From: an uncultured Alphaproteobacteria bacterium
GTDB lineage: Bacteria; Pseudomonadota; Alphaproteobacteria; UBA7879; VGCX01
DNA: 64,000 nucleotides
Direction: 5' to 3'
Assembly (NCBI GenBank): GCA_913061155.1
Contig: CAJXSI010000002.1
Coordinates: 1,167-65,166 of the forward strand
The notes under the pieces are model-generated. The model did no database searches. It was not told the DNA's origin and worked only from the letters and a program-made list of their open reading frames with translations. The translations under genes and the position numbers were made by a program. Below are positions 1 through 42,137 of this stretch, in pieces (position 1 is the first letter of the stretch; the number at the start of each line of letters is the position of its first letter).

Positions 1-2838
1 GGAACTTGCCGCGATTGTTTCAACTTCTTCGTCGTCATCTGTGTCAGCTAGCCAGCTGGCATTCAAGGGTTGTGATAATTTGGATCCATCACGATACAAA
101 GCATTGGCTTTCAGACCCAATTTCCATGATAGGAAATAGGCTTCTTTACAGTCTTCAATTGTGGCAGAACTTGGCATATTAACGGTTTTGGAAATTGCTC
201 CTGAAATAAACGGTTGGGCCGCTGCCATCATACGAATGTGGCTTTCTGCAGAAAGATAGCGCTTTCCAGTTCGTCCACAAGCATTCGCACAGTCAAAAAT
301 GGGCAGATGTTCATCTTTTAAATGCGGCGACCCTTCCAATGTCATGCTGCCACAACAGTATTCATTGGCTGTATCAATATCTTGTTTTGTGAACCCAAAT
401 TCTGTCAACATATCAAAGGAAGGACTATCCAATTGGGCTTGGGTGAAGCCAAGTTTTTCTATGCAAAAGTCTTCCCCAAGGCTCCATTTATTAAAGGCAA
501 ATTTAATGTCAAAAGCTGACTTTAAGGCCCCTTTTAATTGATCGATTTGATCTGCCTCAAATCCTTTTTCAAGTAATTTGGCAAAGTTAATCGTTGGGCA
601 TCCTTCTAAGGTTCCATGACCCACTGTATACTTTTCAATATCTTTAATTTGGTCAGCTGTGTACCCAAGATTTCTTAAGGCACGGGGCGCCATACGGTTG
701 ATAATTTTAAAGTATCCGCCACCAGCAAGCGTTTTGAATTTAACCAAAGCAAAGTCTGGTTCAATCCCTGTTGTATCACAATCCATCACCAATCCGATTG
801 TTCCCGTTGGCGCAATCACAGTTGTTTGGGCATTACGATATCCATACTTTTCACCCATACTTAAGGCGTTATCCCAGGCTTTCTTTGCATGGTCGACCAA
901 TCCTTTGACAGGGCAGTCAGTTGCATCTAAAGGCACAGGCAGAATTTCAAGATTTTCATAGTCTTCTTTTTCACCATAAGCTGCTTTGCGGTGATTCCGC
1001 ATGACACGCAGCATATCTTCAGTATTATCTTTATATCCTTTGAAAGGCCCATGTTCTTTCGCCATTTCTGCCGATGTTGTATATGAAACGCCTGTCATAA
1101 CGGCTGCGATTCCGCCGGCAACGCTGCGGCCTTCTTCGCTGTCGTAAGGAATGCCCATAGCCATTAACAAACCACCGATATTGGCATAGCCCAGACCTAA
1201 TGTGCGATAATTATAAGTCCCCAAGGCAATTTCATCAGAAGGTAATTGGGACATTGTCACAGCAATTTCCAAAGTCAAAGTCCATAGGCGCACTGCATAT
1301 TCAAAGCCCTTAATATCGAATTCGGCTTTGCCTTTTGCGGCTTCTTTATAGAATTTGATTAAGTTGATGGAGGCCAAGTTACAAGCCGTATCGTCCAAGA
1401 ACATATATTCAGAGCAAGGATTGGATGCATTAATGCGCCCATGTTGTGGGCATGTATGCCATTCATTAATGGTTGAGTCATATTGAATTCCTGGATCAGC
1501 ACACGCCCATGCGGCATAAGCCACTTTGTTCCAAAGGGCAGCGGCATCAACAGATTTAAAAGGTTTTCCATTTGTCCGACGAATCAAATCCCAACTTTCC
1601 CCTTTTAAGGCTTTGCGCAAGAAATCATTGGATACACGAACAGAGTTATTAGAGTTCTGTCCAGAAACAGTATTGTAAGCTTCGGATGTCCAGCCTGTAT
1701 CAAAGGTATCAAAATCAAATGATTTTTGTCCTTGATTGGCCAGTTGCAAAATACGTTGGATATAGTTATCAGGAACCAGGGCATTACGGGCTTTTTTAAT
1801 GGCCATTTTTAAGTCGTGATTTTGTTTCACATCTGTGACAGCATCCTCTGTCCCATCAGGAAAGCAAGCTGTCATAACGGCGTCAAGGCTTTTCTTTGTT
1901 GCTTTTGATCCACAAACCAAGGCGGCAACTTTTTGTTCTTCGGCAACCTTCCAGTTGATGTATTCTTCGATATCTGGATGGTCAATGTTAACTGTTACCA
2001 TTTTTGCGGCACGGCGGGTGGTTCCCCCTGATTTAATGGCGCCGGCTGCACGATCACCAATGCGAAGGAAACTCATCATCCCCGAAGATTTTCCACCACC
2101 AGACAAGGATTCCCCACTGCCACGTAAGGCAGAAAAGTTTGTACCCGTTCCAGAACCAAATTTGAAAAGACGGGCTTCGCGGATCCAAAGATCCATGATG
2201 CCCCCGTCGCCAACCAAGTCATCTTTAATACCTTGGATAAAACAGGCATGGGGTTGCGGACGTTCATAGGCCGTCTTTGATTTCACTACTTCTTCTGTTT
2301 CAGGATCAACGTACGAATGTCCTTGTGCAGGCCCTTCAATACCATAGGCCCAGTTTAAACCTGTGTTAAACCATTGGGGTGAATTTGGGGCCCCCATTTG
2401 TTCACACAAGATATGACGCATTTCATCAAAATAAGCTTGGGCATCTTCTTCTGTATCAAAGTAATCGTGCTTCCATCCCCAATAAGTCCAAGTCCCAGCC
2501 AGGCGGTCGAATACTTGTTTGGCGGATGTTTCAGAGCCATACTGTTGATCTTCTGCTAAGTTTTCTAAGGCTTTGTCATCTGGTTTGGATTTTTGCAACC
2601 AAGTGGGAATACCTTTTTCAGTAACTTTCTTTGAATGTGCGGGAACACCAGCCTTGCGGAAATATTTCTGGGCGATTACATCAGCGGCAACTTGGGACCA
2701 TTCTTCGGGAACTTCCAAAGATTCCAGATTAAAAACAATACTTCCATCAGGATTTTTAATCTGACTGGTTGTGGTTTTAAATTTGATTGAATCATAAGGG
2801 GATTGTCCGGCAACTGTAAAACGGCGTTGAATTTTCAT
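1..2838 (-). CDS. nrdJ: Vitamin B12-dependent (class II) ribonucleotide reductase, N-terminal 946 codons. The gene continues past the window start, so the C-terminus is missing.
   Basis: ATG (rc) at 2836-2838. The read-through translation contains class II RNR hallmarks (…[23 protein letters not shown]…, …[21 protein letters not shown]…, …[21 protein letters not shown]…). The frame runs open to position 1. It is absent from the ORF track because no stop lies in the window. Confidence 0.85.
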
Positions 2839-3067
2839 GGTCCTGTGTTCCTCTCAAAGGCAAAAGTATATAAAAAGTTAAATTTTTTTCTTAATTTTTT
2901 CTAATGTAGGTAAAACCTATAAAAACCGCCCATTTAACCATATATTGGGTTATCCGGGGGTGATGGCTTCTACATCTAGTATTATGATTATATAGTTACG
3001 ATAGCTATTTCAAGTAAAATTTCTGCAAAATAGGAACTTTTTTTTCTTGAATTTTTTTTGAAATTAT

Positions 3068-3433
3068 GTGTCAACTGTATTCATGAGGTCTAGGACACAA
3101 TTAATAATTTCAGAAGTAAAAACATTTTGTAAACTTGCACAATTTATAGGCAAGGATGTATTCGAAAATAAATATTATGAATCATCAAATAAATTTTTTA
3201 GTAAAAGTAAAGCGAATAGTCGACGATGGGTTGTCTATAAAGGATATGCTGAAGGGTCAAAGGTAAGCCCCAATTGGCATGCGTGGCTGCACCATGCCGT
3301 TGAAAAGAAACCGGCAAGCCCCAGTAAAAAGACCACATCGTTTGTGCCAAATTTAACAGGCACCCCTTATAAGGACAAACCCAAATTTCAAGAAAAAAGG
3401 CATAAAGACGGATACCAGTCTTGGCGACCTTAG
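3068..3433 (+). CDS. NADH:ubiquinone oxidoreductase 17.2-kDa subunit (NDUFA12) family protein. The start is ambiguous: GTG at 3068 or ATG at 3083.
   Basis: Motifs …FENKYYESSN…RRWVVYKGYAEGSKVSPNWHAWLHH… are typical of bacterial NDUFA12-like proteins. It sits divergent from nrdJ across an AT-rich promoter region. Confidence 0.6.
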   Translation: MSTVFMRSRTQLIISEVKTFCKLAQFIGKDVFENKYYESSNKFFSKSKANSRRWVVYKGYAEGSKVSPNWHAWLHHAVEKKPASPSKKTTSFVPNLTGTPYKDKPKFQEKRHKDGYQSWRP

Positions 3434-5899: not shown

Positions 5900-5988
5900 T
5901 GGAAGAGAGAGAGGGATTCGAACCCTCGATACGCATAACGTATACACACTTTCCAGGCGTGCGCCTTAAACCACTCGGCCACCTCTCC
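5900..5988 (-). tRNA. tRNA-Ser, anticodon GGA, with long variable arm and encoded CCA
   Basis: The reverse complement gives GGAGAGG-TG-GCC-GAGTGGTTTAA-GGC-G-CACGC-CTGGAAA-GTGTG-[17-nt variable arm]-GAGGG-TTCGAAT-CCCTC-TCTCTCT-T-CCA. The acceptor stem has G1·U72 and G7·U66 wobble pairs, and position 73 is U. Confidence 0.85.
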
Positions 5989-6515: not shown

Positions 6516-7289
6516 ATGGTGGATAAAACACGTATTAAAAATCAGTTACTAAGTATGGGGGTGGATCAACTTATGTCCGAAACCCCAACGGATCGTGTTG
6601 CGCAAAAAACAGAAGAACCCAAACCAGAAACGCCCCAACCAAAACAAACGATATCCCGGCCTGCGGTTGCGGCAAAAGGGGTGTCAACCCAGATCCAAGA
6701 AACAGAGGCATTGGCTGCCTCTGCACAAACCCTTGATGATTTAAAACGGGCCATTCAAAACTACGAAGGTTTGGCTGTTAAAAAAACCGCATTGAACATG
6801 GTTTTTTGTGACGGGAATTCCAAGGCCAAAATCATGTTGGTTGGCGAGGCCCCTGGCGCGGAAGAGGATAAACAAGGCAAACCCTTTGTCGGCCAAAGTG
6901 GCCAGATGTTGCGTAAAATATTCAAGTTTGCTGGCTTTGATCTTGATAATATTTACATCAGTAATGTCTTGAATTGGCGCCCACCAGGAAATCGCACGCC
7001 AACGCCGCAAGAAATTGCCATCGCCCGTCCTTTTATTCAACGCCACATAGAATTGGTTAACCCCGATATGGTTATTATGGTGGGGGGAACATCCTGTAAG
7101 GCATTGATTAATGCTAAAGATGGGATCACAAAATTGCGCGGTAATTGGTACGATTTGGATTTTTTGAAAGAGGGATCAACTGTTAAAGCAACCGCCATTT
7201 ATCATCCAGCCTATTTAATGCGCAGCCCGTCACGGAAAAAAGATGTGTGGCAAGATGTCTTGAAAATCAAAAATTACGTGGGGTCATGA
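6516..7289 (+). CDS. Family-4 uracil-DNA glycosylase (SPO1 polymerase-related type) with an N-terminal low-complexity extension
   Basis: Family-4 UDG motif …CDGNSKAKIMLVGEAPGAEEDKQGKPFVGQSGQ… and the downstream …VIMVGG…HPAYLMRSP…. Confidence 0.7.
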   Translation: MVDKTRIKNQLLSMGVDQLMSETPTDRVAQKTEEPKPETPQPKQTISRPAVAAKGVSTQIQETEALAASAQTLDDLKRAIQNYEGLAVKKTALNMVFCDGNSKAKIMLVGEAPGAEEDKQGKPFVGQSGQMLRKIFKFAGFDLDNIYISNVLNWRPPGNRTPTPQEIAIARPFIQRHIELVNPDMVIMVGGTSCKALINAKDGITKLRGNWYDLDFLKEGSTVKATAIYHPAYLMRSPSRKKDVWQDVLKIKNYVGS

Positions 7290-7329
7290 CACCTAAAAGC
7301 GGCGGCCTATAACTAAACAATCATCCTCC

Positions 7330-7995
7330 TGCTGATTCCCAAAACCTGTCAACGAATTTGTGCGCTTATACAGTCCCGGACTTGATGCGGGGCTCAGCCC
7401 CATTCTTTACCAGGTTTCCCGTTAAAATTTCCCAAAATCTGGACATATTGACACAGATATGGTTAACCTCAGCCAATGGGTTTTTTCGCTTTGCTTCATA
7501 ATTGCATTAAAGTGCCTAAAAAATAGGCAGGGAAAACCGCGAAAAATAATTTTTTTATTAAAAAAGTACCTACGCGCGCATGGCTTGGGCAAAATAGGCC
7601 CAACCAATTAATGCGGGCTACAGGCCCATAATAAATATAACTAACTGAAATAGCTGACTTATTTACCCATGCGTAAAACGCATACCATTTCCCGTTAATT
7701 TTACCCAGCCCCCCTTCATTGTCATTCCGGACTTGATCCGGAATCCACAGCGGTGTTTATTACAGACAATTTGATTGCCGTAGACTTCTAGCACCAGGGC
7801 GACGAGGTAAAATAGTCCGCTCATAACCTTAATGACAAACGATCCTACCCTGGTAATCTTATACGTATCGTCATCCCGGACTTGATCCGGGATCCAGTCA
7901 TAAACTAAACGGCAGGCGGGTTGTATCCAGTGACTACCGCCCTGGACTCCTGGCCAATCCTGGAATGGTAAGCAAGCGGCATCCCAATGCTTGAT
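7330..7995. repeat. Cluster of REP/MITE-like hairpin repeats. Includes a composite ~165-bp element (7790-7955) present as an inverted copy of elements in 12440-12720.
   Basis: Hairpins attccgga-CTTGA-tccggaat (7724-7744) and atcccgga-CTTGA-tccgggat (7873-7893), plus a degenerate copy at ~7374-7400. The block …gacaaacgatcctaccctggtaatcttatacgtatcgtcatcccgga… is the reverse complement of 12440-12530 and 12604-12700. Confidence 0.7.
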
Positions 7996-8129
7996 CAGGG
8001 GATAAAGTATTAATTTCCGGTATTTTAAAATTCTACCTTGTTAAATCCCAGCATTTTTTCTATACTGCTGACTATAATTAAGAAATCTATCTGGTTTCTT
8101 CATAAGTTTTATTTCAAGGTTATTTAAGA

Positions 8130-9440
8130 ATGCACGCAAATTTACCCCTAACACAAATTACTGTGATTGTTTTATGCGCACTGGTATGTGGATTATTATT
8201 CACACGGTTTAAACAGCCCGCTGTTTTGGGGTATGTCTTGGCGGGGGTTGTTCTGGGCCCGAACGTTTTATCGAATGGCGAGGATGTTTCGATGATTCGC
8301 GCCTTGGCAGAACTGGGCGTATTCATGTTGATGTTTTTAATCGGGGTGGAATTAAACTTAAGATCGTTTAAGGAAGTATGGCTACAGACCATTGGGGTGG
8401 TTACCTTGCAATTTGCAGGCAGTTTGGGGGCGATGTTCTTGGCATCTTTGGTGTTTAAATGGCCCTTTGCGTTGACGTTTTTGTTTTCTTGTATTGTGGC
8501 GCTAAGCAGTACGGCTGTCTCTATCAAAATGTTGGAATCAACGGGTGAGTTGCGCACAAATGTTGGACGCCTGACGGTTGGTATTTTAATTGCGCAAGAC
8601 CTTGCCTTCGTTCCGATGATTATCACCATTCAGTTTTTGGGTGGGGGGGATGTTTCCATTGCCATGCTGATATGGAAAGTCGCCTTAGCCGTTGGTATTA
8701 TCGCAACGTTGACTTGGTACCTTAGCCGGAATGAACGGATTTCATTGCCAGTGATTCATAAGACATCGCAAACAACAGAACTTGTTCCGTTATTGGCCCT
8801 GACATTTTGTTTTGGGTTGGCGGCGATTGCGGGTTTTTTGGGGTTGTCCGCGGCTTACGGTGCCTTTTTGGCTGGATTAGTTCTGGGGAACACAGCCGAT
8901 CGCCATTCAGTTATTAATGTGACACGTCCGATTCAAAGCACTCTGTTAATGGTTTTCTTCTTATCTGTTGGATTATTGGTTGATCTGAATTACATCTGGG
9001 ATAATATCCTTAAGGTAGCTTGGTTGTTGCTTACTATTGCCTTGGGGAAAACCATTTTAAACGCCACAATTTTGCATTTTTTCAAACAGCCGTGGTCCAT
9101 GTCTTTTTTATGTAGTTTGATGTTGGCCCAGATTGGAGAGTTTTCATTTGTTTTGGCAGACACAGCCGTAGAAGCAGGGGTGCTAAGCGTAGATGAAAAT
9201 AAACTGGTAATTTCCTTAACTGTTTTATCTTTGGTCTTCAGCCCATTTTGGGCAAAGGCAGCCAGTAAATTACAAGGCATGGATACCCTGAACTTAAGGA
9301 CGTTCCGGGATGGCATTAACACAATTTATGGGGCAGGGTTGCCAACGGCCCAATATGTATCAAAGTACGTTGTCCGCATCACAAAATATGGGAATAAAAT
9401 TGCCAAAACAATTAAACGTAAATTCCGAAAAAAGTCCTAA
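8130..9440 (+). CDS. Monovalent cation:proton antiporter-2 (CPA2/Kef-type Na+/H+ exchanger) family membrane protein
   Basis: About 12 TM segments. N-terminal …VLGYVLAGVVLGPNVL… and …ILIAQDLAFVPMI… are typical of the Na_H_Exchanger family. No C-terminal TrkA-N domain. Confidence 0.7.
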   Translation: MHANLPLTQITVIVLCALVCGLLFTRFKQPAVLGYVLAGVVLGPNVLSNGEDVSMIRALAELGVFMLMFLIGVELNLRSFKEVWLQTIGVVTLQFAGSLGAMFLASLVFKWPFALTFLFSCIVALSSTAVSIKMLESTGELRTNVGRLTVGILIAQDLAFVPMIITIQFLGGGDVSIAMLIWKVALAVGIIATLTWYLSRNERISLPVIHKTSQTTELVPLLALTFCFGLAAIAGFLGLSAAYGAFLAGLVLGNTADRHSVINVTRPIQSTLLMVFFLSVGLLVDLNYIWDNILKVAWLLLTIALGKTILNATILHFFKQPWSMSFLCSLMLAQIGEFSFVLADTAVEAGVLSVDENKLVISLTVLSLVFSPFWAKAASKLQGMDTLNLRTFRDGINTIYGAGLPTAQYVSKYVVRITKYGNKIAKTIKRKFRKKS

Positions 9441-10071
9441 GGCCTATGCCCCCAGCTTTGAATTTGAATCAAAATTTAATGGCATTGTGGCAGGTGTTGA
9501 CGAAGTAGGCATCGGGTCATGGGTTGGTCCCGTGATGGCGGCGGCAGTCATTCTTAAACCAGGGGTTTCCAAAGATATTTTGCAAAATCTGCAAGACTCC
9601 AAAAAATTATCCACCCCAAAACGGAATTTTATTTATCATCAGTTGTTAAAGTGTCCCCACGTTATTTATGGTATTGGGCAGGCAAGCGTTGATGAGATAG
9701 AGGCCTTGAATATTCGCCAGGCCACCTTTTTGGCCATGTCCCGCGCGGTCGATGCGTTGGGTGTAAAACCAGACGCCGCCATTGTGGATGGAAAGGCGCG
9801 CCCAATTTTGCCGTGCCCGATTCAAATGGTTATTAAGGGGGATCAACGAAGTTTTTCCATCGCGGCCGCGTCCATCATTGCCAAAGTAACACGGGATCAA
9901 TTTATCAAGGACTTGGCTGAAAAATTCCCAGAATATGGTTGGGATAAAAATGCAGGCTATGGAACACAAAAACATCGCGACGCCCTTAATAATCAAGGTG
10001 TAACTGACTTCCATCGCAAGGGATATGCGCCGATTGCAAGGCTTCTATGCCCAGAAAGACTTGAAAATTAA
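9388..10071 (+). CDS. rnhB: Ribonuclease HII. The start is uncertain. The ORF is open from 9310, and the ATG at 9388 overlaps the antiporter 3' end.
   Basis: …GIVAGVDEVGIGSWVGPVMAAAVIL… and …SIAAASIIAK… catalytic motifs. Confidence 0.75.
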   Translation: MGIKLPKQLNVNSEKSPKAYAPSFEFESKFNGIVAGVDEVGIGSWVGPVMAAAVILKPGVSKDILQNLQDSKKLSTPKRNFIYHQLLKCPHVIYGIGQASVDEIEALNIRQATFLAMSRAVDALGVKPDAAIVDGKARPILPCPIQMVIKGDQRSFSIAAASIIAKVTRDQFIKDLAEKFPEYGWDKNAGYGTQKHRDALNNQGVTDFHRKGYAPIARLLCPERLEN

Positions 10072-10205
10072 GGGTTTTCTTGTTTTTTCGCCTTGAATTA
10101 TTGTTGGCATCCTCTTACATTATCCGTTGAATAATCATTTTATCATGTAAAAGTAATTTTACTATTGGGCAATCAAAAACGTCGAAACGAAAGGAAACTT
10201 AAGAA

Positions 10206-10964
10206 ATGAAGAAAATTTTAATGTGTACAGCTGCGGCAACCATGCTTGCAGGATCCGCCTTTGCAGATAACGGCGCTTACGTTGGTTTTGGCCTTGGGAA
10301 TACCTTTGCGAATATATCAAATAAAACAAATGCCTCAGCTTATGATGTAGATACAGGCAAAACTGAATATCACTCTTTTGGTAACAGAAGATTAAAAGAT
10401 AAAACAGGAACTACAGGAAAATTATATGCAGGGTATGAATATGAAATGCAAGAATTTTCATTGCTTTTTGAAGGTGGATATACCCTTGATACTTCTGAGG
10501 CTGAATATGGAAATGAAACCAGTGGTGAAAACAATCTGGAATTAGATGGAACACCATCTTCTGTCGGGCCTGATGACAGTGATCCCGTTATTACTTCTAT
10601 GAAGTTAAAAAGAAACCACATTGTTTCTGTTGGAATGGGGATAAAAAAGGAAGTGGCCGCGAAATTTTCTGTAATGGGTGGTTTGGACCTTTTACATAGT
10701 CAATTTAAATTCCAAAGTAAAGGGACGGCTGATTACACGACAGGTGTTAACTCTGTTGTTAAGAAGAAATCTAAGTTTGGACTGGCACCGTGGGTTGGAA
10801 TGTCCTGGGATGCAGGAATTGTTGAAGCAGGATTAAGATATCAATATTCCAGATATCAACAGTTGAAAACTGGCGGGGATTATACTCCAAACAAGTTTAA
10901 CATCGCCAATAAAATCAAACCTGAATACCATACAATTATGGTAACAATTTCAAAGAAAATATAA
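10206..10964 (+). CDS. Outer-membrane beta-barrel-type protein, paralog A. Same family as 23361-24098.
   Basis: SD AAAGGA. Signal peptide …AGSAFA|DNG. About 45% identical to the 23361-24098 product, with shared blocks …YHSFGNRRLK…GKLYAGYE…KFGLAPWVG…AGLRYQYSRYQ…KPEYHTIMVTISKKI. Confidence 0.6.
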   Translation: MKKILMCTAAATMLAGSAFADNGAYVGFGLGNTFANISNKTNASAYDVDTGKTEYHSFGNRRLKDKTGTTGKLYAGYEYEMQEFSLLFEGGYTLDTSEAEYGNETSGENNLELDGTPSSVGPDDSDPVITSMKLKRNHIVSVGMGIKKEVAAKFSVMGGLDLLHSQFKFQSKGTADYTTGVNSVVKKKSKFGLAPWVGMSWDAGIVEAGLRYQYSRYQQLKTGGDYTPNKFNIANKIKPEYHTIMVTISKKI

Positions 10965-10991
10965 ATTTAATAAAAAGTTAAGAGGTTCATT

Positions 10992-12065
10992 ATGAAAAAT
11001 ATAAAAACAATTCTTTTAGGCGCATCGATGCTGATGTCATTAAATTCAATAGCAACACAATACAATAGCTATGATGAATTACCGGCTAAAGCAAAAAGAA
11101 GGGCAATTAAGTGCGCAACTGTAGTTCCAGAATACCAAGGTATTACGCCTGAACAAGTTGCACGCAATTTTGGTTGGATAGTCGGAGAGGCTATTCCTAA
11201 AAATGATGCAGAAGCACGTGAAAGGTTGAGAACAGCTGCCGCCGCAGCAAGAACAGCTGCCGCCGCAGTTGCTGCCGCTGCTCAACCAGTAGCAGGAGCT
11301 CCAGGATCAACAAGATCAGCATTGCGTTCAGCATCTGCAGAATCAGATTCAGAGGACGATGCACAAGCAGGAGCAGGAGCTCCAGGATCATCACGGTCTT
11401 CAGTAGCCTCAGGAGCAGGAGCTCCAGGATCAGCAAGAACAGCAGCCGGCGGTAGAACTCCAGGATCATCACGGCATTCAGCCGCCACAGGTAGGCCAAC
11501 TTTAGCATCACGGCTAGCAGCAGAAGCAGCAGAACCAGATAGCCATGAATCAGGCTACTCTGTTGCAAGGCTTCCTAGTGATTTGGAGGGTATCATTCTT
11601 GACCTTGACGCGGGAAATCCTATAAAAATATGGATGGGAAGTAATTCTATTACGATGGATGATCTAGGCAAAGCCTATGGTAAATTAACAGGTTCGGATA
11701 AAGATAAGCGTGAAAAACTTGCCCAGGTTTTAAATGCATTTGCCGCGGCGAGTGGAACTGAAGGCTTTCTCGAAGATATGCTAAATGCTTGTGCTTGTCT
11801 AGAAGGTGCCGCAGCAGCAGCCGCAGCTCCAGCCGATGAAACTCCAGCAGCCGCCGCTGGCAATGGGACAAAGCCAACATGGGCTACTGTTGTCGCTCCA
11901 CCAGAAGGTGCAGCAGCCGGCGCAGCCGCAGCTCCAGCAGCTTCACCAGCAGCAGCCGCAGCAGCTCCAGCTCCAGCTCCAGCCGATGAAACTCCAGCAG
12001 CTTCAGAAGGTGGTGCAGATGGCGCAGCAGTAGGCGATAGAACTCCAAAAGGAAAAGGAAAATAA
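10992..12065 (+). CDS. Secreted low-complexity, tandem-repeat protein. GC-rich Ala/Gly/Pro/Ser core and a Lys-rich tail.
   Basis: SD AAGAGG. Signal peptide MKNIKTILLGASMLMSLNSIA. Repeats GAGAPGS(x)RS… at nt ~11280-11480 and a duplicated APADETPAA unit (11823-11851 and 11970-11998). Ends …RTPKGKGK. A rho-independent terminator follows. Confidence 0.65.
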   Translation: MKNIKTILLGASMLMSLNSIATQYNSYDELPAKAKRRAIKCATVVPEYQGITPEQVARNFGWIVGEAIPKNDAEARERLRTAAAAARTAAAAVAAAAQPVAGAPGSTRSALRSASAESDSEDDAQAGAGAPGSSRSSVASGAGAPGSARTAAGGRTPGSSRHSAATGRPTLASRLAAEAAEPDSHESGYSVARLPSDLEGIILDLDAGNPIKIWMGSNSITMDDLGKAYGKLTGSDKDKREKLAQVLNAFAAASGTEGFLEDMLNACACLEGAAAAAAAPADETPAAAAGNGTKPTWATVVAPPEGAAAGAAAAPAASPAAAAAAPAPAPADETPAASEGGADGAAVGDRTPKGKGK

Positions 12066-12115
12066 CCGAAAGGTTAATCTACTAATTCTTTAACTAATAT
12101 TGAATAAATAAAAAA

Positions 12116-12138
12116 CCCCGCACACTGCGGGGTTTTTT
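12116..12138 (+). terminator. Rho-independent terminator after 10992-12065
   Basis: ccccgca-cac-tgcgggg followed by TTTTTT. Confidence 0.7.
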
Positions 12139-12159
12139 GCATGACAGGGAAAAATTAGG

Positions 12160-13075
12160 ATTATTCATTAACTTTGCCACAATGGCCTTCCGGCCACTCC
12201 GTCATCGCAAGTAGCCAAAGGATGCGTGGTAATCCATACGCCATCGACCTCCTCCAACTTCGTCGCCCCGCGCTTGATGCGGGGCCCAGGGCGGCAGTCA
12301 TCGGACACAATTTTCGTCATTCTGAATTTAGTTCAGAATCCATGTATCTCTGGCAGGTAAGGTATTTGTGATGAACACCGCTGTGGATTCCGGATCAAGT
12401 CCGGAATGACAATGAAGAAAGATGTCTAAGGTGGACTGGATTCCGGATCAAGTCCGGGAGGACGATACGTATAAGATCACCAGGGTAGAATCATTTGTCA
12501 TTAATCCTATGAGCGGACCTATTTTACTTCGTCGCCCCGTGCTTGACACGGGGTCCAGGGCGGCACTCACCGGATACAACCCGCCTGCTTTTTAGTTTAT
12601 GACTGGATTCCGGATCAAGCCCGGGACGACGATACGTATAAGATCACCGGGGTAGGATCGTTTGTCATTAATCCTATGAGCGGACCTATTTTTATTCGTC
12701 GCCTCGTGTATAGGTTCAGTAATTCGATGGCTATTTTACTTCGTCGCCCCGTGTATAAGTTCAGTAATTCGATGGCTATTTTACTTCGTCGCCCCGTGCT
12801 TGACACGGGGTCCAGGGCGGTATTCACCGGACACAATTTTCGTCATTCTGAATTTAGTTCAGAATCCATGTATCTCTGGCAGGTAAGGTATTTGTGATGA
12901 ACACCGCTGTGGATTCCGGATCAAGTCCGGAATGACAATGAAGAAAGATGCCTAAGGTGGACTGGATCCCGGATCAAGTCCGGGAAGACAATGAAGAAAG
13001 ATGTCTAAGGTAGACTGGGTCCCACGGTCAAGCCGTGGGATGACGGCAAAAAAGAAGTATCAAGGGCTGGGCAGA
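12160..13075. repeat. Dense array of REP/MITE-like elements. Contains ~180-bp direct repeats (12276-12460 and 12792-12975), a 52-bp tandem array (~12698-12830) and many CTTGA-loop hairpins.
   Basis: Hairpins at 12276-12294, 12387-12407, 12440-12458, 12538-12556, 12792-12810, 12912-12932, 12966-12984 and 13020-13040. Near-identical 180-bp blocks. Unit ttcgtcgccYcgtgtataRgttcagtaattcgatggctatttta repeated 2.5×. Confidence 0.75.
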
Positions 13076-13189
13076 CAAAACGAAGACGTCTATGATTTAA
13101 AACCACAAGGAGATGTTAATAACAATTTTCAAGCCACGAGGAGAGAGTGATGAAAACATTAGGGCTACAAGGAGAAGGGGATGAAAACC

Positions 13190-14086
13190 TTAAGAGCGTG
13201 GGTGGGTTTTTGTATAAATCTGTTTTAGTTTTTCCCGGTTAATATCGGTGTAACGTTGGGTGGTGGATAAGGAGGCATGCCCCAATAATTCTTGGATGGT
13301 GCGCAGGTCGCCGTCTGTCTCCAACAAATGGGTGGCAAATGTATGGCGTAATGCGTGGGGTGTTACCGTTTCTGGCAAGCCTATTCTTCGCCGGATATCG
13401 CGAATTTGTTTTTCCGCCACACTGATATTTAACCGTCCCCCCTTTTCTCCGTAAAACAATGGGCCTGAATCAAAAGGGCAAAAACTTATATACTTTTTAA
13501 TGGCACTGGCAACCACTGGCAACACGGGAACCAATCGTTCTTTGTTGCCTTTTCCTTTAATCCGCAAAACTGTATCAGCCATATCTTTTTTATCCAGCGC
13601 CAATGCCTCACTGATACGAAGGCCGCATCCATAAAGCAGTGTAAATAAGGCCAAGTTTCGTCGGTTGATCCAATCATCGCGATCATCTTCTTCGCAGGCA
13701 TCCAACAAATCGATTGCTTGGGATTTTGATAACCCACGCGGAATTGACTTTGGTATTTTGGGGGATCTTATATTTTGAATAATGGGATTGTGAAGAATAT
13801 CTTGACGGTCCAAATATTTATAAAAACTACGTACCACACTTAAGGCCCGGGCAATGGATGATTTGGCCAATTTATTTTCATTCAACTGACCAAGCCAGGC
13901 GCGGAAATCAATCGCCTTTAAACCTTCCAATGTTTTCAGGGTGGGCGCCCCCCCTTGATAGTGGGTGATGAAATTTAAGAATTGATCCAAGTCTTTTGTA
14001 TAGGCCAAAAAAGTATTGGTGGATAATTGGCGTTCTGATTGCACCCATGTTATCCACCTTTTAATGACTTGTTCGATGTTTTGCAT
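13190..14086 (-). CDS. xerC: Tyrosine recombinase XerC. The start is taken at the ATG overlapping the tal stop by 1 nt; the ORF is open to 14122.
   Basis: C-terminal …HALRHTFATHLLETDGDLRTIQELLGHASLSTTQRYT…HPRS catalytic R-H-R-Y region. Confidence 0.8.
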   Translation of the reverse strand: MQNIEQVIKRWITWVQSERQLSTNTFLAYTKDLDQFLNFITHYQGGAPTLKTLEGLKAIDFRAWLGQLNENKLAKSSIARALSVVRSFYKYLDRQDILHNPIIQNIRSPKIPKSIPRGLSKSQAIDLLDACEEDDRDDWINRRNLALFTLLYGCGLRISEALALDKKDMADTVLRIKGKGNKERLVPVLPVVASAIKKYISFCPFDSGPLFYGEKGGRLNISVAEKQIRDIRRRIGLPETVTPHALRHTFATHLLETDGDLRTIQELLGHASLSTTQRYTDINREKLKQIYTKTHPRS

Positions 14087-14748
14087 TAATCCTCGATAAT
14101 TGACTGTCCTGTCGATTGCCAATCTTTCAAAAAGGCATCCAGTCCATTATCTGTTAGGGGATGCTTAACCAATTGCTTGAAAACTTTGGCTGGCAAGGTT
14201 GCCACATCTGCACCAATTTCTGCCACCTGTTTTACGTGCAGTGGATGGCGCAAGGATGCCGCCAAAACTTGGGTGGTGATTTCAGGATAATTATCATAAA
14301 CCTGACAAATTTCTGAAATTAATGTCATGCCTTCCTGGCCAATATCATCCAAGCGTCCAATAAACGGGGAAATAAATGTTGCCCCTGCTTTTGCTGCCAT
14401 CAGGGCTTGCATAGATGAAAAACACAGTGTCACATTGACCAAGATATTTTCTTGGCGCAAACGATAACAGGCCTTTAATCCATCTTCTGTTAGGGGAACT
14501 TTGACACACACATTACTTGCAATTTTGGCCAAATATTTTCCTTCCCGGACCATGCCTTCAACATCAGTTGCCGTAACTTCGGCACTGACAGGACCGTCGA
14601 CAGCTTCGCAAATTTCGGCAATCACATCTTTAATCTTACGGCCTGTTTTGGCAATAATCGAAGGGTTTGTTGTCACCCCATCAACCAGCCCCATTTCTGC
14701 CAATTCTTTAATTTCTTTTACATTTGCGCCATCAACAAAAAACTTCAT
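14086..14748 (-). CDS. tal: Transaldolase / fructose-6-phosphate aldolase (type 3B, ~220 aa)
   Basis: [34 protein letters not shown]… signature N-terminus. Confidence 0.8.
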
Positions 14749-16845: not shown

Positions 16846-17793
16846 ATGAATCGTATTTTTTACGCACTTATTATAATTTTACAGCTTCTTCCCAACGTTT
16901 TATTGGCAGAAGATCAGCCCTCTGAATACACCAATCCTGAAAAAATCCGGGCGGATCTGGATCGTCTTGAACAATATGTTCACAAGAAACTGGGGTTAAA
17001 TGATTTGGAACAACCAACCGGATTGCCGAAACCTGAAGCTGCTGAAAAAACAGCGTCTATTTATGAAAAAGGTGACCTGTCCCACCTTCATTCAAAACTG
17101 GACGATCAAAATACTTTGGTTGCGAATCTGATGGATCGTATTGAAAGATTAGAACATCAAGATGATATTTTTGGCCAGTCAACCCAAAAGAAAAATAATG
17201 AAATTGACCAGTTGAAAGAACACTTTGCGGCCCTGCAAGGTCAATTGGATGTTGCCCTTTTAGAAATTGAAAAATTAAAAAAATCTGGGGAAACTGCCCC
17301 AAAAGAAAAAGAAGATTCAAAGAAAAAATCTGAAGATACCCCTACGGAAAAGATCGCCCCTAAACCTGTTGAAGAAAATAAAAATGTTGATTTGGATGGA
17401 AAGTCCCCGGAAGAAATTTTCGACCTGGGGGAAAAAACTCTTAAGGCCGCAGATTATCAAACAGCCCAAAATATCTTTGATCAATACGTGGAATTGGATG
17501 GGGATAAATCTTCAAAATCAAAAGCCCATTATTATCTGGGGGAAATTTGTAATTTAACAAAACAGCCTGCCAAAGCATCCGAGCATTACCTGAAATCTTT
17601 CCAGTTAGATACTTCTGGGGATCATGCCGCAGAAAGTTTGGTGAAACTTGGCATTACTTTGCATGACGGCGGAAAGGCCAAAGCTGGTTGTGCCGCCCTT
17701 AAAAAAGCAAAAACCGAATATCCGGAAATGACAAGTTCTTCAAGATCTTTATTAGATGCTAAAATCAAGGAATTTAAGTGCCAAACAAGTTAA
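16846..17793 (+). CDS. cpoB: Tol-Pal system protein CpoB/YbgF. Signal peptide, coiled coil, C-terminal TPR.
   Basis: Signal peptide, long coiled coil (…LEHQDDIFG…QLKEHFAALQGQLD…), C-terminal TPR-like …AHYYLGEICNLTKQPAKASEHYLKSF…. The ybgF-tilS-ftsH synteny is conserved in alphaproteobacteria. Confidence 0.65.
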   Translation: MNRIFYALIIILQLLPNVLLAEDQPSEYTNPEKIRADLDRLEQYVHKKLGLNDLEQPTGLPKPEAAEKTASIYEKGDLSHLHSKLDDQNTLVANLMDRIERLEHQDDIFGQSTQKKNNEIDQLKEHFAALQGQLDVALLEIEKLKKSGETAPKEKEDSKKKSEDTPTEKIAPKPVEENKNVDLDGKSPEEIFDLGEKTLKAADYQTAQNIFDQYVELDGDKSSKSKAHYYLGEICNLTKQPAKASEHYLKSFQLDTSGDHAAESLVKLGITLHDGGKAKAGCAALKKAKTEYPEMTSSSRSLLDAKIKEFKCQTS

Positions 17794-19088: not shown

Positions 19089-20995
19089 ACAATAACATTC
19101 GTAATTTTTGGCTTTTGACGATTATCGCCTTTGGCTTGTTCACCATATACAATATGTTTGATAATGGTAATGAGCAAAGTGGGGCCAAAATTATTGATTA
19201 TTCTGCCTTTAGAACAGCTGTCACACAAAACCAAATCAGCGAAGTTATCCTTAAGGGTGATACCGTTGTTGGTCGCCAAAATGATGGGCAAAAATTTATT
19301 ACCCGTGTTCCAGAAAATAACTTGTTTGCCGATGATTTGGCCAGTAAAGGCGTGAAAGTTGAAGCCGTTAACCGCGATGAAAACTATCCCTCTCTGTTCA
19401 GTGTCCTTATTTCTTGGTTCCCTATTTTATTATTTATTGGTGTTTGGGTTTACTTTTACCGTCAAATGCAATCTGGCGGCGGCGGTAAATCTATGGGATT
19501 TGGTAAATCAAAAGCAAAAATGCTGACCGAAGATAAATTAAAAATCACCTTCAAAGATGTTGCTGGTATTGAAGAAGCCAAAGATGAATTGGTGGAAATT
19601 GTCGACTTTTTAAAAGACCCCGAAAAATTCCACCGTATTGGCGGGCGCATCCCCAAAGGTGTCTTGTTAATGGGGTCACCTGGAACGGGTAAAACATTGT
19701 TGGCCAAGGCCATTGCGGGCGAAGCCCAAGTTCCTTTCTTTTCCATTTCAGGATCTGACTTTGTTGAAATGTTCGTTGGGGTGGGGGCCAGCCGTGTGCG
19801 TGACATGTTTGCGCAGGCTAAAAAGAACTGTCCTTGCATTATTTTCATTGATGAAATTGACGCTGTTGGACGTCATCGTGGGGCCGGCGTTGGCGGCGGC
19901 AATGATGAACGCGAACAAACTTTAAACCAATTATTGGTTGAAATGGACGGCTTTGATGAAAATGAAAGCGTTATCATAATTGCCGCCACCAACCGACCCG
20001 ATGTTCTGGACCCAGCTTTGATGCGTCCAGGCCGTTTTGACCGTCAAGTTGTTGTTCCATTACCGGATCTGGAAGGCCGTGAAGCCATTTTAAAAGTGCA
20101 TATGCGCAAGATTTCTTTGGCAGATGATATCAATGCAAAAGTTATTGCCCGGGGAACCCCTGGTTTTTCTGGGGCAGATCTTAGTAACCTTGTGAACGAA
20201 GGTGCCCTTTTGGCCGCGCGTCTTAATAAGCGTGTTGTCAGTATGGCCCATCTGGAAGAGGCCAAAGACAAAGTCATGATGGGGGCAGAACGCCGTTCCA
20301 TGATCATGACAGACGAAGAAAAAAAATTAACGGCTTATCATGAAGGTGGCCACGCCTTGGTTGCTTATTATATGGAAGACTCTGATCCCATTCACAAGGC
20401 AACCATTATTCCACGTGGGCGGGCTTTGGGTATGGTGATGCGCTTACCTGAAAAAGATCAAGTTTCTGTTACATTGGCCAAGTTAAAAGCTGACATTGCT
20501 GTTGCCATGGGGGGGCGTATTGCCGAAGAAATTATTTTTGGCAGAGAAAAAGTAACCACAGGGGCCTCTTCTGACATTCGGATGGCAACTGATTTGGCCA
20601 AGCGCATGGTCATGGAATGGGGGTTAAGTGAAAAGCTTGGACCCCTTGCATATGGCGCACCACAGCAAGAGGTATTCTTGGGACACTCTGTCACACAAAC
20701 CCAAGATATGTCAGAAAAAACACAGGAACTTGTGGATCAAGAAATCCGGCGTTCTGTAGATGATGGTTACGATGTTGCCTGTAAATTAATCAAAAAACAT
20801 ATTAAACAATTACATGCTTTGGCTGGGGCTATGTTGGAATTTGAAACCCTAAGTGGGGATGATATTGATAAGATCATGAAGGGAAAAAAGTTAGATCGTG
20901 ATCCACCTGCCAAAGGTAAAAAGAAAGCTGTGAAAAAGTCTAAGTCCTCGATCCCGGGAATGTCTGGACCAACACCGGCACCGCAAGGGGCATAA
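19085..20995 (+). CDS. ftsH: ATP-dependent zinc metalloprotease FtsH
   Basis: Two N-terminal TMs, AAA+ Walker A …[13 protein letters not shown]…, second region of homology, HEGGHAL zinc motif. Confidence 0.95.
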
Positions 20996-36770: not shown

Positions 36771-36820
36771 TAGCCTTAACAACAAGTGGCTATGGACACT
36801 TTTAACAAAGGTTACTAAGG

Positions 36821-37936: not shown

Positions 37937-37939
37937 TAG

Positions 37940-42137
<4,198 letters not shown>

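What the first reader, a model, noticed from the sequence alone, without database searches (positions are those of the whole stretch)
12160..13075. REP/MITE-like hairpin family with an invariant CTTGA pentaloop and co-varying stems
There are at least 12 hairpins in the two clusters (7330-7995 and here). All share the loop CTTGA, or TCAAG on the other strand. The GC-rich stems differ but stay complementary: attccgga/tccggaat, atcccgga/tccgggat, tcccacgg/ccgtggga, ccccgtg/cacgggg, ccccgcg/tgcgggg. Compensatory stem changes around a constant loop imply selection on the structure or on a protein that recognises the loop, rather than plain repeat decay. Candidates include REP-associated transposase targets, gyrase or IHF sites, transcript stabilisers, or a recombination-hotspot motif. 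No RAYT-type transposase is present in the window.
Basis: seen in the sequence. Interest (0 to 1): 0.6.

Follow-up and report, generated by a model that had tools for sequence, protein, structure and literature searches.

The report
CGTC-tagged REP hairpin repeat arrays
The hairpins are real, but they belong to an already described, very widespread class of small bacterial palindromic repeats (CGTC-tagged REPs), here stacked into two mosaic arrays that sit exactly where closely related strains differ in gene order.

Summary
The window has 13 directional units of the form (C/T)GTC – 8-9 bp stem – 5-nt loop – stem' – CCA. Eleven carry the loop CTTGA and two carry TTTAG. There are also relics and two half-units. 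All lie in two intergenic arrays (7370-8005 and 12262-13044) and nowhere else in the 64 kb.

This is the published anatomy of CGTC-tagged repetitive extragenic palindromes (Di Nocera et al. 2013, PMC3733652). Neisseria dRS3/NIME repeats are a branch of that superfamily, and no dedicated transposase is known for it.

Stem covariation is strong: 81 double-change cells against 22.7±3.9 in shuffles. The loop is not invariant, because GAAA, GAAG, CTCGA and TTTAG occur in the same frame. Some window copies decay without compensation.

No RAYT, IS110-type or other transposase is encoded in the window. The arrays resemble NIMEs: GC-rich hairpins separated by reused spacer modules. Strains that are ≥99% identical diverge in gene order exactly at them.

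Verdict: a new instance of a known repeat class. Interest is modest. The open question, what mobilises CGTC REPs, remains open.

The parts
7370..8005 (+). Array 1. An intergenic mosaic between the UDG-family gene (6516-7289) and the Na+/H+ exchanger gene (8130-9440). All units read CGTC->CCA on the + strand.
   Evidence: It shares 71-143-nt modules, inverted and 85-91% complementary, with array 2 (I1-I4).
7370..7396 (+). Degenerate unit ACA-GTCCCGGA-CTTGA-TGCGGGGC-TCA. It has 6 WC pairs, 1 G.U and 1 mismatch, and its tag and tail are altered.
   Evidence: partial CM hit 7375-7391, E 0.18. It is conserved in strains L127-L129.
7721..7747 (+). Intact unit (T)GTC-ATTCCGGA-CTTGA-TCCGGAAT-CCA.
   Evidence: 47.2 bits; -11.5 kcal/mol
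7870..7896 (+). Intact unit (C)GTC-ATCCCGGA-CTTGA-TCCGGGAT-CCA.
   Evidence: 49.1 bits; -12.7 kcal/mol
7979..8005 (+). Possible relic unit GCA-TCCCAATG-CTTGA-TCAGGGGA-TAA. Only the 5 basal pairs are left.
   Evidence: The CM does not detect it.
12110..12138 (.). Canonical bidirectional intrinsic terminator between the end of ORF 10992-12065 and array 2. It is context and not part of the repeat family.
12262..13044 (.). Array 2. An intergenic mosaic between the convergent ORF 10992-12065 (+) and the xerC-like gene 13190-14122 (-). It holds 11 units, which make up 38% of its length, separated by reused 26-157-nt spacer modules. Unit order is + + - - | + - | half half | + + - - -.
12262..12288 (+). 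Unit (C)GTC-GCCCCGCG-CTTGA-TGCGGGGC-CCA.
   Evidence: 42 bits; -16.1 kcal/mol
12316..12342 (+). Same-frame unit with a different loop: (C)GTC-ATTCTGAA-TTTAG-TTCAGAAT-CCA.
   Evidence: D9; E 0.027; -7.5 kcal/mol, z -3.8
12384..12410 (-). Intact unit ATTCCGGA/TCCGGAAT. With 12316-12342 it forms a tags-outside (HH) dimer with a 41-nt spacer.
12437..12463 (-). Decayed unit CTCCCGGA/TCCGGAAT with 2-3 unpaired positions. It is a paralogue of the intact unit at 7870.
   Evidence: (z -0.18)
12531..12557 (+). Unit (C)GTC-GCCCCGTG-CTTGA-CACGGGGT-CCA.
12604..12630 (-). Decayed unit GTCCCGGG/TCCGGAAT. With 12531-12557 it forms an HH dimer with a 46-nt spacer.
   Evidence: (z +0.52)
12697..12708 (+). Half-unit: tag plus left arm CGTCGCCTCGTG, followed directly by TATAGGTTCA... 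It lies within the 45-nt tandem repeat 12686-12775.
   Evidence: D13. The same half-unit junction occurs in L001.
12742..12753 (+). Second half-unit CGTCGCCCCGTG|TATAAGTTCA... Strain L001 leaves collinearity with the window at 12743.
12788..12814 (+). Unit GCCCCGTG/CACGGGGT. It is a paralogue of 12262-12288 and differs from it by a compensatory C-G to T-A pair.
12842..12868 (+). Second TTTAG-loop unit.
12910..12936 (-). Intact unit ATTCCGGA/TCCGGAAT.
12963..12989 (-). Unit TTCCCGGA/TCCGGGAT with 7 pairs and a basal mismatch.
13016..13044 (-). 9-bp-stem unit (C)GTC-ATCCCACGG-CTTGA-CCGTGGGAC-CCA. It is the first unit downstream of xerC.
   Evidence: 24.3 bits; -14.5 kcal/mol. It is perfect in strains L003 and L004.

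Best explanation
The two clusters are arrays of CGTC-tagged repetitive extragenic palindromes (REPs). These are short, directional, non-coding, non-autonomous repeats built as an unpaired tag (C/T)GTC, an 8- or 9-bp GC-rich stem, a 5-nt loop (mostly CTTGA) and an unpaired CCA tail.

In this genome they are interleaved with a small set of reused spacer modules, forming mosaic arrays like the Neisseria intergenic mosaic elements.

Shown here:
- the unit anatomy;
- membership in a family present in very many bacteria;
- strong stem covariation with constant tag, loop and tail;
- a preference for tags-outside (HH) dimers;
- a strictly intergenic position;
- no transposase nearby;
- decay of some copies;
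- arrays coinciding with gene-order breakpoints between near-identical strains.

Inferred:
- The units are propagated, or were in the past, as folded single-stranded hairpins or hairpin dimers by a trans-acting enzyme encoded elsewhere. That enzyme would read shape plus the tag, loop and tail. This would explain why any stem sequence is tolerated as long as it pairs, and why copies that are no longer propagated drift.
- Once present, the arrays act mainly as dispersed homology that promotes recombination, unit gain and loss, and rearrangement.
- Copies that are transcribed will add stable 3'-UTR hairpins.

I put identity as CGTC REPs at about 0.9. The mechanistic part is much less certain, about 0.4, because the mobilising enzyme of this superfamily is unknown.
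For: Anatomy and family:
- All 13 units carry CGTC or TGTC, an 8-9 bp stem, a 5-nt loop and CCA. This matches the published definition: CGTC changed to TGTC in many repeats, stems of 8 or 9 bp, loops of 4 or 5, tail CCA, HH dimers predominant and no associated transposase (PMC3733652).
- That paper's supplement lists the REP-encoded peptide WTPDQVRGD in Sphingopyxis alaskensis truB. It back-translates to TGGACCCCGGATCAAGTCCGGGGTGAC, the reverse complement of the second commonest 27-mer found here.

Distribution:
- 112 of 143 matches are perfect over all 8 pairs.

Covariation:
- 94.5% of cells are paired. All 5 unconstrained pairs show double changes. There are 81 double-change cells against 22.7±3.9 in shuffles, with 0 of 500 shuffles as high. 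Sliding the 3' partners by one to three columns drops the paired cells to 14-49% and the double-change cells to 0-11 (likewise).

Dimers:
- The tags-outside arrangement accounts for 59 of 71 adjacent pairs in genome loci and 67 of 87 in viral loci.
- The window has three such pairs: 12316/12384, 12531/12604 and 12842/12910.

No local enzyme:
- Pfam and NCBIfam scans of the window's ORFs found no transposase, RAYT or IS110 (and precomputed Pfam).
- No gene family is enriched next to units in 240 loci, apart from gene-transfer-agent-like (RcGTA-like) structural genes.

Arrays as recombination substrates:
- Modules are shared between arrays at 85-95% identity, including a third array in L001.
- Strains 99-100% identical in the flanks leave collinearity exactly at the arrays. 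L128 and L129 leave at 7708, L135 at 7714 and L001 at 12743. L134 independently confirms the window's UDG-array-nhaP junction.
- In 96%-identical strains the array content beyond the first unit is completely different.

NIME-like GC alternation:
- Units average 57.5% GC, spacers 43.8% and the window 40.2%.
Against: - The mobilising enzyme is unknown, and no transposition event was observed here.
- The strain comparisons rest on short-read metagenome contigs, which can be mis-joined at repeats. Against that, the UDG-divIC junction appears in two independent assemblies and the UDG-nhaP junction in two others.
- The published description calls clusters 'rare' for CGTC repeats, whereas here arrays are the rule.
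- Three units start their stem with G-C or G.U rather than the 'almost invariable' A-T.
- The figure that assigns family numbers is not held in the library, so I cannot say whether the authors would call these CGTC-2 or something else. Their supplement labels the S. alaskensis CTTGA-type unit CGTC-1.
- The near-identity of the unit across phyla is not obviously explained by selfish spread without a linked gene.
Confidence: 0.7

Rival explanations
1. REPIN/RAYT system. The units are GTAG-type REP doublets mobilised by a domesticated IS200-like tyrosine transposase (RAYT) encoded elsewhere in the genome.
For: - Tags-outside dimers dominate, as REPINs do.
- Hairpin shape is conserved while stem sequence is free, as expected for a single-strand hairpin-binding HUH enzyme.
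- The rest of the genome could not be searched.
Against: - The tag is CGTC or TGTC, never GTAG.
- No Y1 transposase is in the window.
- No such gene is enriched beside units in 240 loci.
- The survey that defined the family found RAYT genes in many CGTC-bearing species, but none flanked by CGTC units (PMC3733652).
Confidence: 0.1
2. Site-specific recombination sites. Each hairpin would be the binding or crossover site of a recombinase, as proposed for Neisseria dRS3, into which filamentous prophages integrate through a phage-encoded transposase/recombinase. The arrays would be a selected device for exchanging the flanked genes.
For: - The architecture is NIME-like.
- Gene-order breakpoints fall exactly at the arrays.
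- Half-units end exactly at the stem/loop boundary at 12708 and 12753, and at three places in L001.
- A tyrosine recombinase gene lies 145 nt from array 2.
Against: - The adjacent recombinase scores as ordinary XerC (TIGR02224, 306 bits) and sits in a conserved tal-xerC-priA context.
- Recombinases are not enriched near units elsewhere.
- The breakpoints lie in spacer modules or at array edges, which is equally expected from plain homologous recombination between 85-95% identical modules.
- The genes between the arrays are housekeeping genes (nhaP-like, rnhB), not variable surface genes.
- A crude scan for split hairpins with an insert was uninformative.
Confidence: 0.2
3. RNA elements as the primary function. 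Transcribed units would act as 3'-UTR stem-loops that block 3' exonucleases or attenuate read-through, and this would keep the stems paired.
For: - Intact units are stable as RNA, -11 to -16 kcal/mol.
- All are extragenic. Array 1 lies downstream of the UDG gene and array 2 lies between convergent genes.
- The defining paper reports REPs mostly just downstream of ORFs.
Against: - A canonical terminator (12110-12138) already precedes array 2.
- Units lack a U-tract.
- Eleven units in a row are far more than any 3'-end function needs.
- The apparent sense bias of the first unit after stop codons (70:18) vanished in singletons (14:10 in genome loci, 7:20 in viral loci). It is therefore a by-product of dimer geometry.
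- Some copies decay freely.
Confidence: 0.2
4. Not a family at all: chance hairpins, or a single local tandem duplication that is decaying.
For: Part of array 2 is a recent 526-nt-spaced duplication, 210 nt at 95% identity (D3).
Against: - There are 8 core matches against 0.01 expected.
- The same unit sits at other loci of the same species (L001 16864-17239 and around 20250-20350).
- It is also present in at least 120 other species.
Confidence: 0.01

Closest known systems
CGTC-tagged REPs (Di Nocera, De Gregorio & Rocco 2013, BMC Genomics 14:522; families CGTC-1 to -4)
   Same: - Unpaired CGTC/TGTC tag.
- Stems of 8 or 9 bp.
- Loop of 5 nt.
- CCA tail.
- Mostly A-T at stem positions 1-2.
- Tags-outside dimers, often heterodimers.
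- Extragenic position.
- No adjacent transposase.
- Probably an alphaproteobacterial host.
- A CTTGA-loop unit is implied by a peptide in that paper's supplement.
   Different: - Here the units are organised almost entirely in arrays, which the paper calls rare for CGTC repeats.
- One sequence type starts its stem with G-C or G.U.
- The range of phyla seen here, judged from MAG titles, is wider than the five phyla reported in 2013.
- The exact family number cannot be checked because the figure is not held.
Neisseria intergenic mosaic elements (NIMEs: dRS3 inverted repeats flanking RS elements)
   Same: - Arrays of a 20-27-nt GC-rich palindrome alternating with reused, lower-GC spacer families of 19-214 nt.
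- Arrays differ between strains.
- Arrays are associated with recombination end-points.
- The 2013 paper classes the Neisseria elements clustered in these mosaic regions as CGTC-1.
   Different: - The dRS3 consensus ATTCCCN8GGGAAT (20 bp) is not met. The window units are ATTCCGGA-CTTGA-TCCGGAAT and similar (21 bp, 5-nt loop).
- The host is not a Neisseria.
- The flanked genes are housekeeping genes.
- No filamentous prophage or Piv-type transposase was seen.
- Bentley et al. 2007 stated that NIME arrays had not been observed outside Neisseria.
GTAG-tagged REPs / REPINs with RAYT transposases (E. coli, Pseudomonas, Stenotrophomonas)
   Same: - A short extragenic palindrome with one unpaired conserved tag.
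- Inverted doublets.
- Stem sequence types that co-vary.
- Many copies per genome.
   Different: - The tag is different (CGTC, not GTAG).
- No RAYT is linked.
- Unlike GTAG REPs, which are largely species-specific, the same unit recurs across phyla.
E. coli BIMEs (bacterial interspersed mosaic elements)
   Same: A mosaic of REP units in alternating orientation with a few conserved linker motifs, located between genes.
   Different: - The REP type is different.
- BIME linkers carry IHF and gyrase sites. Nothing comparable was tested or seen here.

Membership tests
CGTC-tagged REP superfamily | Unpaired 5' terminal tetranucleotide CGTC (variants TGTC, CCTC) | tested here: met
   All 13 units have it: 9 CGTC and 4 TGTC. 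The degenerate unit at 7370 has ACA in place of GTC.
CGTC-tagged REP superfamily | Stem of 8 bp (families 1, 2) or 9 bp (families 3, 4) | tested here: met
   12 units have 8-bp stems and one (13016-13044) has a 9-bp stem.
CGTC-tagged REP superfamily | Complementary A-T residues 'almost invariably' at the first and second stem positions | tested here: inconclusive
   AT...AT in 7 of 13 units. It is GC...G(C/T) in the three GCCCCGYG units, and mutated in three other units (12437, 12604, 12963). Across genomes, position 1 is A-U in 31 of 59 types and G-C or G-U in 15 of 59.
CGTC-tagged REP superfamily | Loop of 4 nt (family 1) or 5 nt (families 2-4) | tested here: met
   The loop is 5 nt in all 13 units: CTTGA in 11 and TTTAG in 2.
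CGTC-tagged REP superfamily | Short unpaired 3' tail fitting CCA | tested here: met
   13 of 13 units.
CGTC-tagged REP superfamily | Predominantly HH dimers (tags outside) | tested here: met
   59 of 71 adjacent pairs in genome loci and 67 of 87 in viral loci are tags-outside. The window has three such dimers inside array 2, plus tandem units.
CGTC-tagged REP superfamily | Extragenic, dispersed and multi-copy in the genome | tested here: met
   All window units are intergenic. Further arrays of the same species lie in L001 at 16864-17239 and around 20250-20350. The whole genome was not available.
CGTC-tagged REP superfamily | No flanking dedicated transposase gene | tested here: met
   No transposase domain was found in the window or in flanks. 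None is enriched in 240 loci.
Neisseria NIME / dRS3 | 20-bp dRS3 consensus ATTCCCNNNNNNNNGGGAAT | tested here: not met
   The window units are ATTCCGGACTTGATCCGGAAT, ATCCCGGA..., GCCCCGTG.... None fits ATTCCC-N8-GGGAAT.
Neisseria NIME / dRS3 | Arrays of the palindrome flanking families of ~50-150-bp repeat (RS) elements, variable between strains, with a GC wave | tested here: met
   Spacer modules of 26-157 nt are reused within and between arrays. Units are 57.5% GC and spacers 43.8%. Array content differs between strains.
Neisseria NIME / dRS3 | Integration target of Nf/MDA filamentous prophages via a phage-encoded transposase/recombinase | not testable with these tools
   No prophage or such transposase is in the window. 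The genome is not available.
GTAG REP / REPIN-RAYT | Terminal GTAG tag | tested here: not met
   The tag is CGTC or TGTC in every unit.
GTAG REP / REPIN-RAYT | A RAYT (IS200-like Y1 transposase) gene flanked by the REPs | tested here: not met
   None is in the 64-kb window. The rest of the genome cannot be tested.
MITE | Terminal inverted repeats bounding a defined element, plus target-site duplications | not tested
   No dedicated search was run. Reading the arrays and the strain junctions showed no element boundaries and no direct repeats flanking units or arrays.
Intrinsic terminator | GC-rich hairpin followed by a U-tract | tested here: not met
   No unit is called by the terminator scan. 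Of the four terminator-like calls in 7200-13300, the only strong one near the arrays is the separate 13-pair hairpin at 12110-12138.

The most novel reading that the evidence does not exclude
The same 27-nt unit (tag, loop and tail constant, stem free but paired) recurs in more than ten phyla with no linked gene. It may therefore be made or maintained by an as-yet unidentified, very widespread enzyme acting on the folded hairpin, rather than by a family-specific transposase. The half-units that stop exactly at the stem/loop boundary (12708, 12753; L001 three times) would mark its cleavage and joining point. The arrays at strain-specific gene-order breakpoints would be its products. If so, this window would offer a tractable natural system, with near-identical strains and different junctions, for finding what mobilises CGTC REPs. 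That question has been open since 2013.
Probability: 0.12. Interest if true: 0.65.

Novelty: new member of a known kind. Interest (0 to 1): 0.25.

Why it matters
As a discovery it matters little. The hairpins are an instance of a repeat class catalogued in 2013, and Neisseria dRS3 belongs to the same class.

Three things are worth keeping:
- NIME-style mosaic arrays, said in 2007 to be confined to Neisseria and in 2013 to be rare for this repeat class, are the normal organisation in this uncultured marine bacterium.
- The arrays coincide base-for-base with gene-order differences between strains that are otherwise 99-100% identical. They therefore break short-read assemblies and may drive rearrangement.
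- The unit's range, judged from MAG titles, extends well beyond the five phyla originally reported. This sharpens the unanswered question of how a repeat with no known transposase spreads and stays uniform.

Tried and rejected
- **Rfam.** At gathering thresholds the window gives only a tRNA (5903-5988) and no described RNA family.
- **Linked gene, genome loci.** All-against-all clustering of ORFs from 120 genome loci found only generic families such as ABC transporters.
- **Linked gene, with viral loci.** Adding 120 viral loci gave portal, protease, capsid, terminase and DUF2460 families. These are RcGTA-like clusters and prophages, not a mobilising enzyme, so the 'viral' hits are not evidence for a phage vector.
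- **Strand-specific RNA role.** The first unit after a stop codon is 'sense' in 70 of 88 cases. Singletons in co-directional contexts show 14:10 and 7:20. I attribute the bias to tags-outside dimer geometry and dropped it as evidence.
- **Split hairpins.** The scan for hairpins split by an inserted element was swamped by pairs of intact units and was uninformative.
- **Integron attC, or Xer-dependent element next to the recombinase.** The gene scores as ordinary XerC and lies in a conserved context. Rejected.
- **CRISPR-like array.** Rejected. Units occur in both orientations, the 'spacers' are themselves repeats, and there are no cas genes.
- **Protein-coding.** Only 50-73-aa ORFs cross the arrays, and the constraint is on base pairing. 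Rejected.
- **Excess substitutions in stems.** Between the two 210-nt paralogous blocks there are 6 differences in 64 stem nt against 5 in 146 other nt, p=0.09. Not significant.
- **Organism identity.** Exact-protein look-ups give only marine metagenome sources (Tara, ENA, one NCBI MAG GCA_034669985.1), and a literature search for the accession found nothing. 'Alphaproteobacterium' is an inference from NDUFA12 and DUF2155 homologues.
Full report
**1. Observation**

An exact-stem scan finds 11 perfect hairpins with loop CTTGA (or TCAAG on the other strand), all inside the two clusters. It also finds two trivial AT hairpins elsewhere. The core CCGGAYCAAGYCCGG occurs 8 times, against 0.01 expected.

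Orienting every copy by its loop shows that the unit is longer and directional. It reads (C/T)GTC, then 8 or 9 paired bases, a 5-nt loop, the complementary arm, and CCA.

A covariance model of this unit (R1) was run over the whole window without filters:
- 11 CTTGA units score E<=1.5e-5.
- Two units in the same frame have loop TTTAG (12316, 12842).
- One degenerate copy lies at 7370.
- Nothing credible was found anywhere else.

Intact units fold at -11 to -16 kcal/mol. Two copies (12437, 12604) have lost pairing and fold no better than shuffles.

**2. Surroundings**

Both clusters are intergenic.
- Array 1 lies between a UDG-family gene and a Na+/H+ exchanger gene.
- Array 2 lies between an unknown Ala/Pro-rich ORF, which has its own canonical terminator at 12110-12138, and a convergent xerC-like gene.
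- The arrays are inverted copies of each other in part: 143 nt at 88% and 85 nt at 91%.
- They bracket 4.5 kb of ordinary genes: an nhaP-like gene, rnhB and two unknown ORFs.

Array 2 is a mosaic. Units make up 38% of its length. The spacers of 26-157 nt are themselves reused modules, including a 53-nt tandem, a 45-nt tandem and a 210-nt block duplicated at 95% identity. Units average 57.5% GC, against 43.8% for spacers and 40.2% for the window.

No transposase, RAYT or IS110-type domain is encoded in the window (with precomputed Pfam).

**3. Elsewhere**

One scan of the one-genome-per-species collection used the pattern GTCNNNCCGNNCTTGANNCGGNNNCCA. About 70 chance hits are expected in 596 Gb, by my own estimate from 17 fixed bases.

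By record title the hits include:
- Alpha-, Beta-, Gamma- and Deltaproteobacteria;
- Campylobacterota;
- Chloroflexi;
- Patescibacteria;
- Ignavibacteria;
- Bacteroidales;
- Nitrospinota;
- Omnitrophota.

The loci range from 34 to 70% GC. Of 143 matches, 112 are perfectly complementary over all 8 stem pairs, including the five pairs the pattern left free. They are therefore not chance hits.

In the same loci the same frame also carries other loops: GAAA, GAAG, CTCGA, CCTGA and CTTGT. L045 (Sulfurovaceae) has an array much like the window's.

The recurrent neighbouring genes there are portal, S78 protease, capsid, terminase and DUF2460. These are RcGTA-like clusters and prophages, often with a dimer right after the portal gene.

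**4. Covariation**

I analysed the 59 distinct 27-mers.
- 94.5% of cells are paired, against 77.6±1.1% in shuffles.
- All five unconstrained pairs show changes on both sides.
- There are 81 double-change cells against 22.7±3.9, and 0 of 500 shuffles reach that.
- Sliding the 3' partners by one to three columns drops the paired cells to 14-49% and the double-change cells to 0-11.

The CM-collected set gives the same picture.

Inside the window the evidence is thinner and mixed. The two 210-nt paralogous blocks differ by a clean C-G to T-A compensation in one hairpin. The copies at 12437 and 12604 have drifted from the intact paralogue at 7870 without compensation. Stem positions are not significantly enriched for differences (p=0.09).

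So pairing is a property of the family, and probably a condition for a copy to be propagated. It is not maintained in every resident copy.

**5. What it is**

The anatomy matches point for point the CGTC-tagged REP superfamily of Di Nocera, De Gregorio & Rocco 2013 (PMC3733652):
- The tag is CGTC, changed to TGTC in many repeats.
- Stems are 8 bp (families 1-2) or 9 bp (families 3-4) and usually start with A-T.
- Loops are 4 or 5 nt.
- The tail is CCA.
- Tags-outside 'HH' dimers predominate (definition).
- The repeats are extragenic.
- They are commonest in Alphaproteobacteria.
- They are not associated with any transposase gene.

The same paper places the Neisseria elements clustered in mosaic intergenic regions (dRS3/NIME) in CGTC-1. 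Its supplement lists the REP-encoded peptide WTPDQVRGD in S. alaskensis. This back-translates exactly to the CTTGA unit GTCACCCCGGACTTGATCCGGGGTCCA, the second commonest 27-mer in my scan.

I verified dimer geometry independently. The tags-outside arrangement accounts for 59 of 71 adjacent pairs in genome loci and 67 of 87 in viral loci.

The window's host is probably an alphaproteobacterium, judged from NDUFA12 and DUF2155 homologues. That is an inference and was not tested.

**6. Arrays and strain differences**

Exact-protein look-ups recovered contigs of the same or near-identical strains.
- L002 and L127 are 100% identical to the window and end inside the arrays. This is the typical assembly break at a repeat.
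- L134 independently spans UDG, array 1 and the 4.5-kb segment, as in the window.
- L128 and L129 come from two separate assemblies and are 99.0% and 99.8% identical over the UDG region. They leave collinearity at 7708, the first base of the array. They continue through a different small array to divIC.
- L135 is 100% identical from 7714 onward but has another gene and an extra 9-bp-stem unit upstream.
- L001 is 99.85% identical over 12 kb. It leaves at 12743, at a half-unit, and continues to ubiE and fpg.
- In strains 96% identical (L003, L004) the array beyond the first unit is entirely different, including a 301-nt tandem.

This behaviour matches what Bentley et al. 2007 (PMC1797815) described for NIME arrays. 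They believed NIME arrays to be confined to Neisseria.

One caveat applies. These are short-read metagenome contigs, and a join across a repeat can be chimeric.

**7. How it most likely works**

Shown:
- the structure and family membership;
- covariation;
- dimer preference;
- extragenic position;
- lack of a local enzyme;
- decay of some copies;
- breakpoints at the arrays.

Inferred:
- Units, or tags-outside dimers, are propagated as folded single strands by a trans-acting enzyme that reads shape plus the tag, loop and tail. This explains free but paired stems.
- Resident arrays then serve as dispersed homology for recombination.

Half-units that stop exactly at the stem/loop boundary hint at a break-join point there. 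They occur at 12697-12708 and 12742-12753, and in L001 on the minus strand near 12020 and at about 16818 and 17273. Slipped-strand duplication on the 12-nt tag-plus-arm explains them equally well.

I tested an RNA-level role and found no specific support. The sense bias disappears in singletons. A true terminator precedes array 2.

The XerC gene next door is a housekeeping-type gene in a conserved context.

**8. Comparison, novelty and verdict**

The finding is a member of the CGTC REP superfamily. All defining features were tested and met, except that the A-T start of the stem is only partly met. It works like a NIME array but fails the dRS3 consensus, so it is not a NIME in the strict sense. 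It is not a GTAG REP/RAYT system, a MITE, a terminator, an attC array or a CRISPR array.

What is new is incremental:
- array organisation outside Neisseria;
- breakpoints between near-identical strains;
- a wider phyletic range than reported in 2013.

Interest is therefore low to moderate. The real unknown, what mobilises and homogenises CGTC REPs across phyla, is not resolved here.

Noticed in passing
window 55132-56058 (-): A 308-aa protein matches the eukaryote-type mitochondrial carrier family (PF00153, E 1.8e-34, two repeats). NCBIfam gives no hit. This is unusual for a bacterium and suggests a host-associated lifestyle or a gene of eukaryotic origin.
   Followed up: no
window 10206-10964 and 10992-12065 (+); 23361-24098 and 22465-23337 (-): These are two paralogous two-gene cassettes, about 69% nt identity over 10760-10965 against 23565-23360. 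Neither has a Pfam or NCBIfam hit. The 357-aa member is full of Ala/Pro-rich 9-15-nt periodic repeats (D1, D2, D4).
   Followed up: partly
window 12686-12775; L001 near 12020 (-), 16818, 17273: 'Half' REP units recur: the tag plus left arm CGTCGCCCCGTG is followed directly by TATARGTTCA... instead of the loop. The break is therefore always at the stem/loop boundary. In the window they form a 45-nt tandem, and strain L001 diverges from the window at one of them.
   Followed up: partly
window 7290-7708: About 420 nt of non-coding sequence downstream of the UDG gene is conserved at 99-100% among strains up to the array edge. It has no Rfam match. It contains the degenerate unit and a small terminator-like hairpin at 7389-7401.
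   Followed up: no
L150 2517-2587, L155 4377-4447 and other IMG/VR loci: In many RcGTA-like structural gene clusters, a tags-outside CGTC REP dimer sits next to the portal gene. In L150 it lies between the portal and prohead protease genes. This could be shared ancestry, or simply one of the few intergenic gaps in those clusters.
   Followed up: partly
L184 2815-6543 (IMGVR_UViG_3300025714_000452): Twelve CGTC units, all in the same orientation, lie within 4 kb, together with half-units CGTCATTCCGGGC|CCTGTAT. This is a head-to-tail arrangement, which the family description calls negligible.
   Followed up: no
window 9310-10071 against 8130-9440: The longest rnhB ORF overlaps the exchanger gene by 131 nt. 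Public gene calls start RNase HII later, giving 227 aa. The 253-aa form is absent from the protein collection, so the shorter start is likely the real one.
   Followed up: partly
window 1-2840 (-), 3068-3433 (+), 35652-40369 (+): This is context for the host. There is a class II ribonucleotide reductase (1215 aa in L127; its 5' end lies in the window and it runs off the window's left edge). There is also an NDUFA12 homologue with MlaD and DUF2155 neighbours, and a dnaN-recF-gyrB block (gyrB inferred from position and length, not scanned). Sources are marine metagenomes including Tara. The taxon was not identified.
   Followed up: partly
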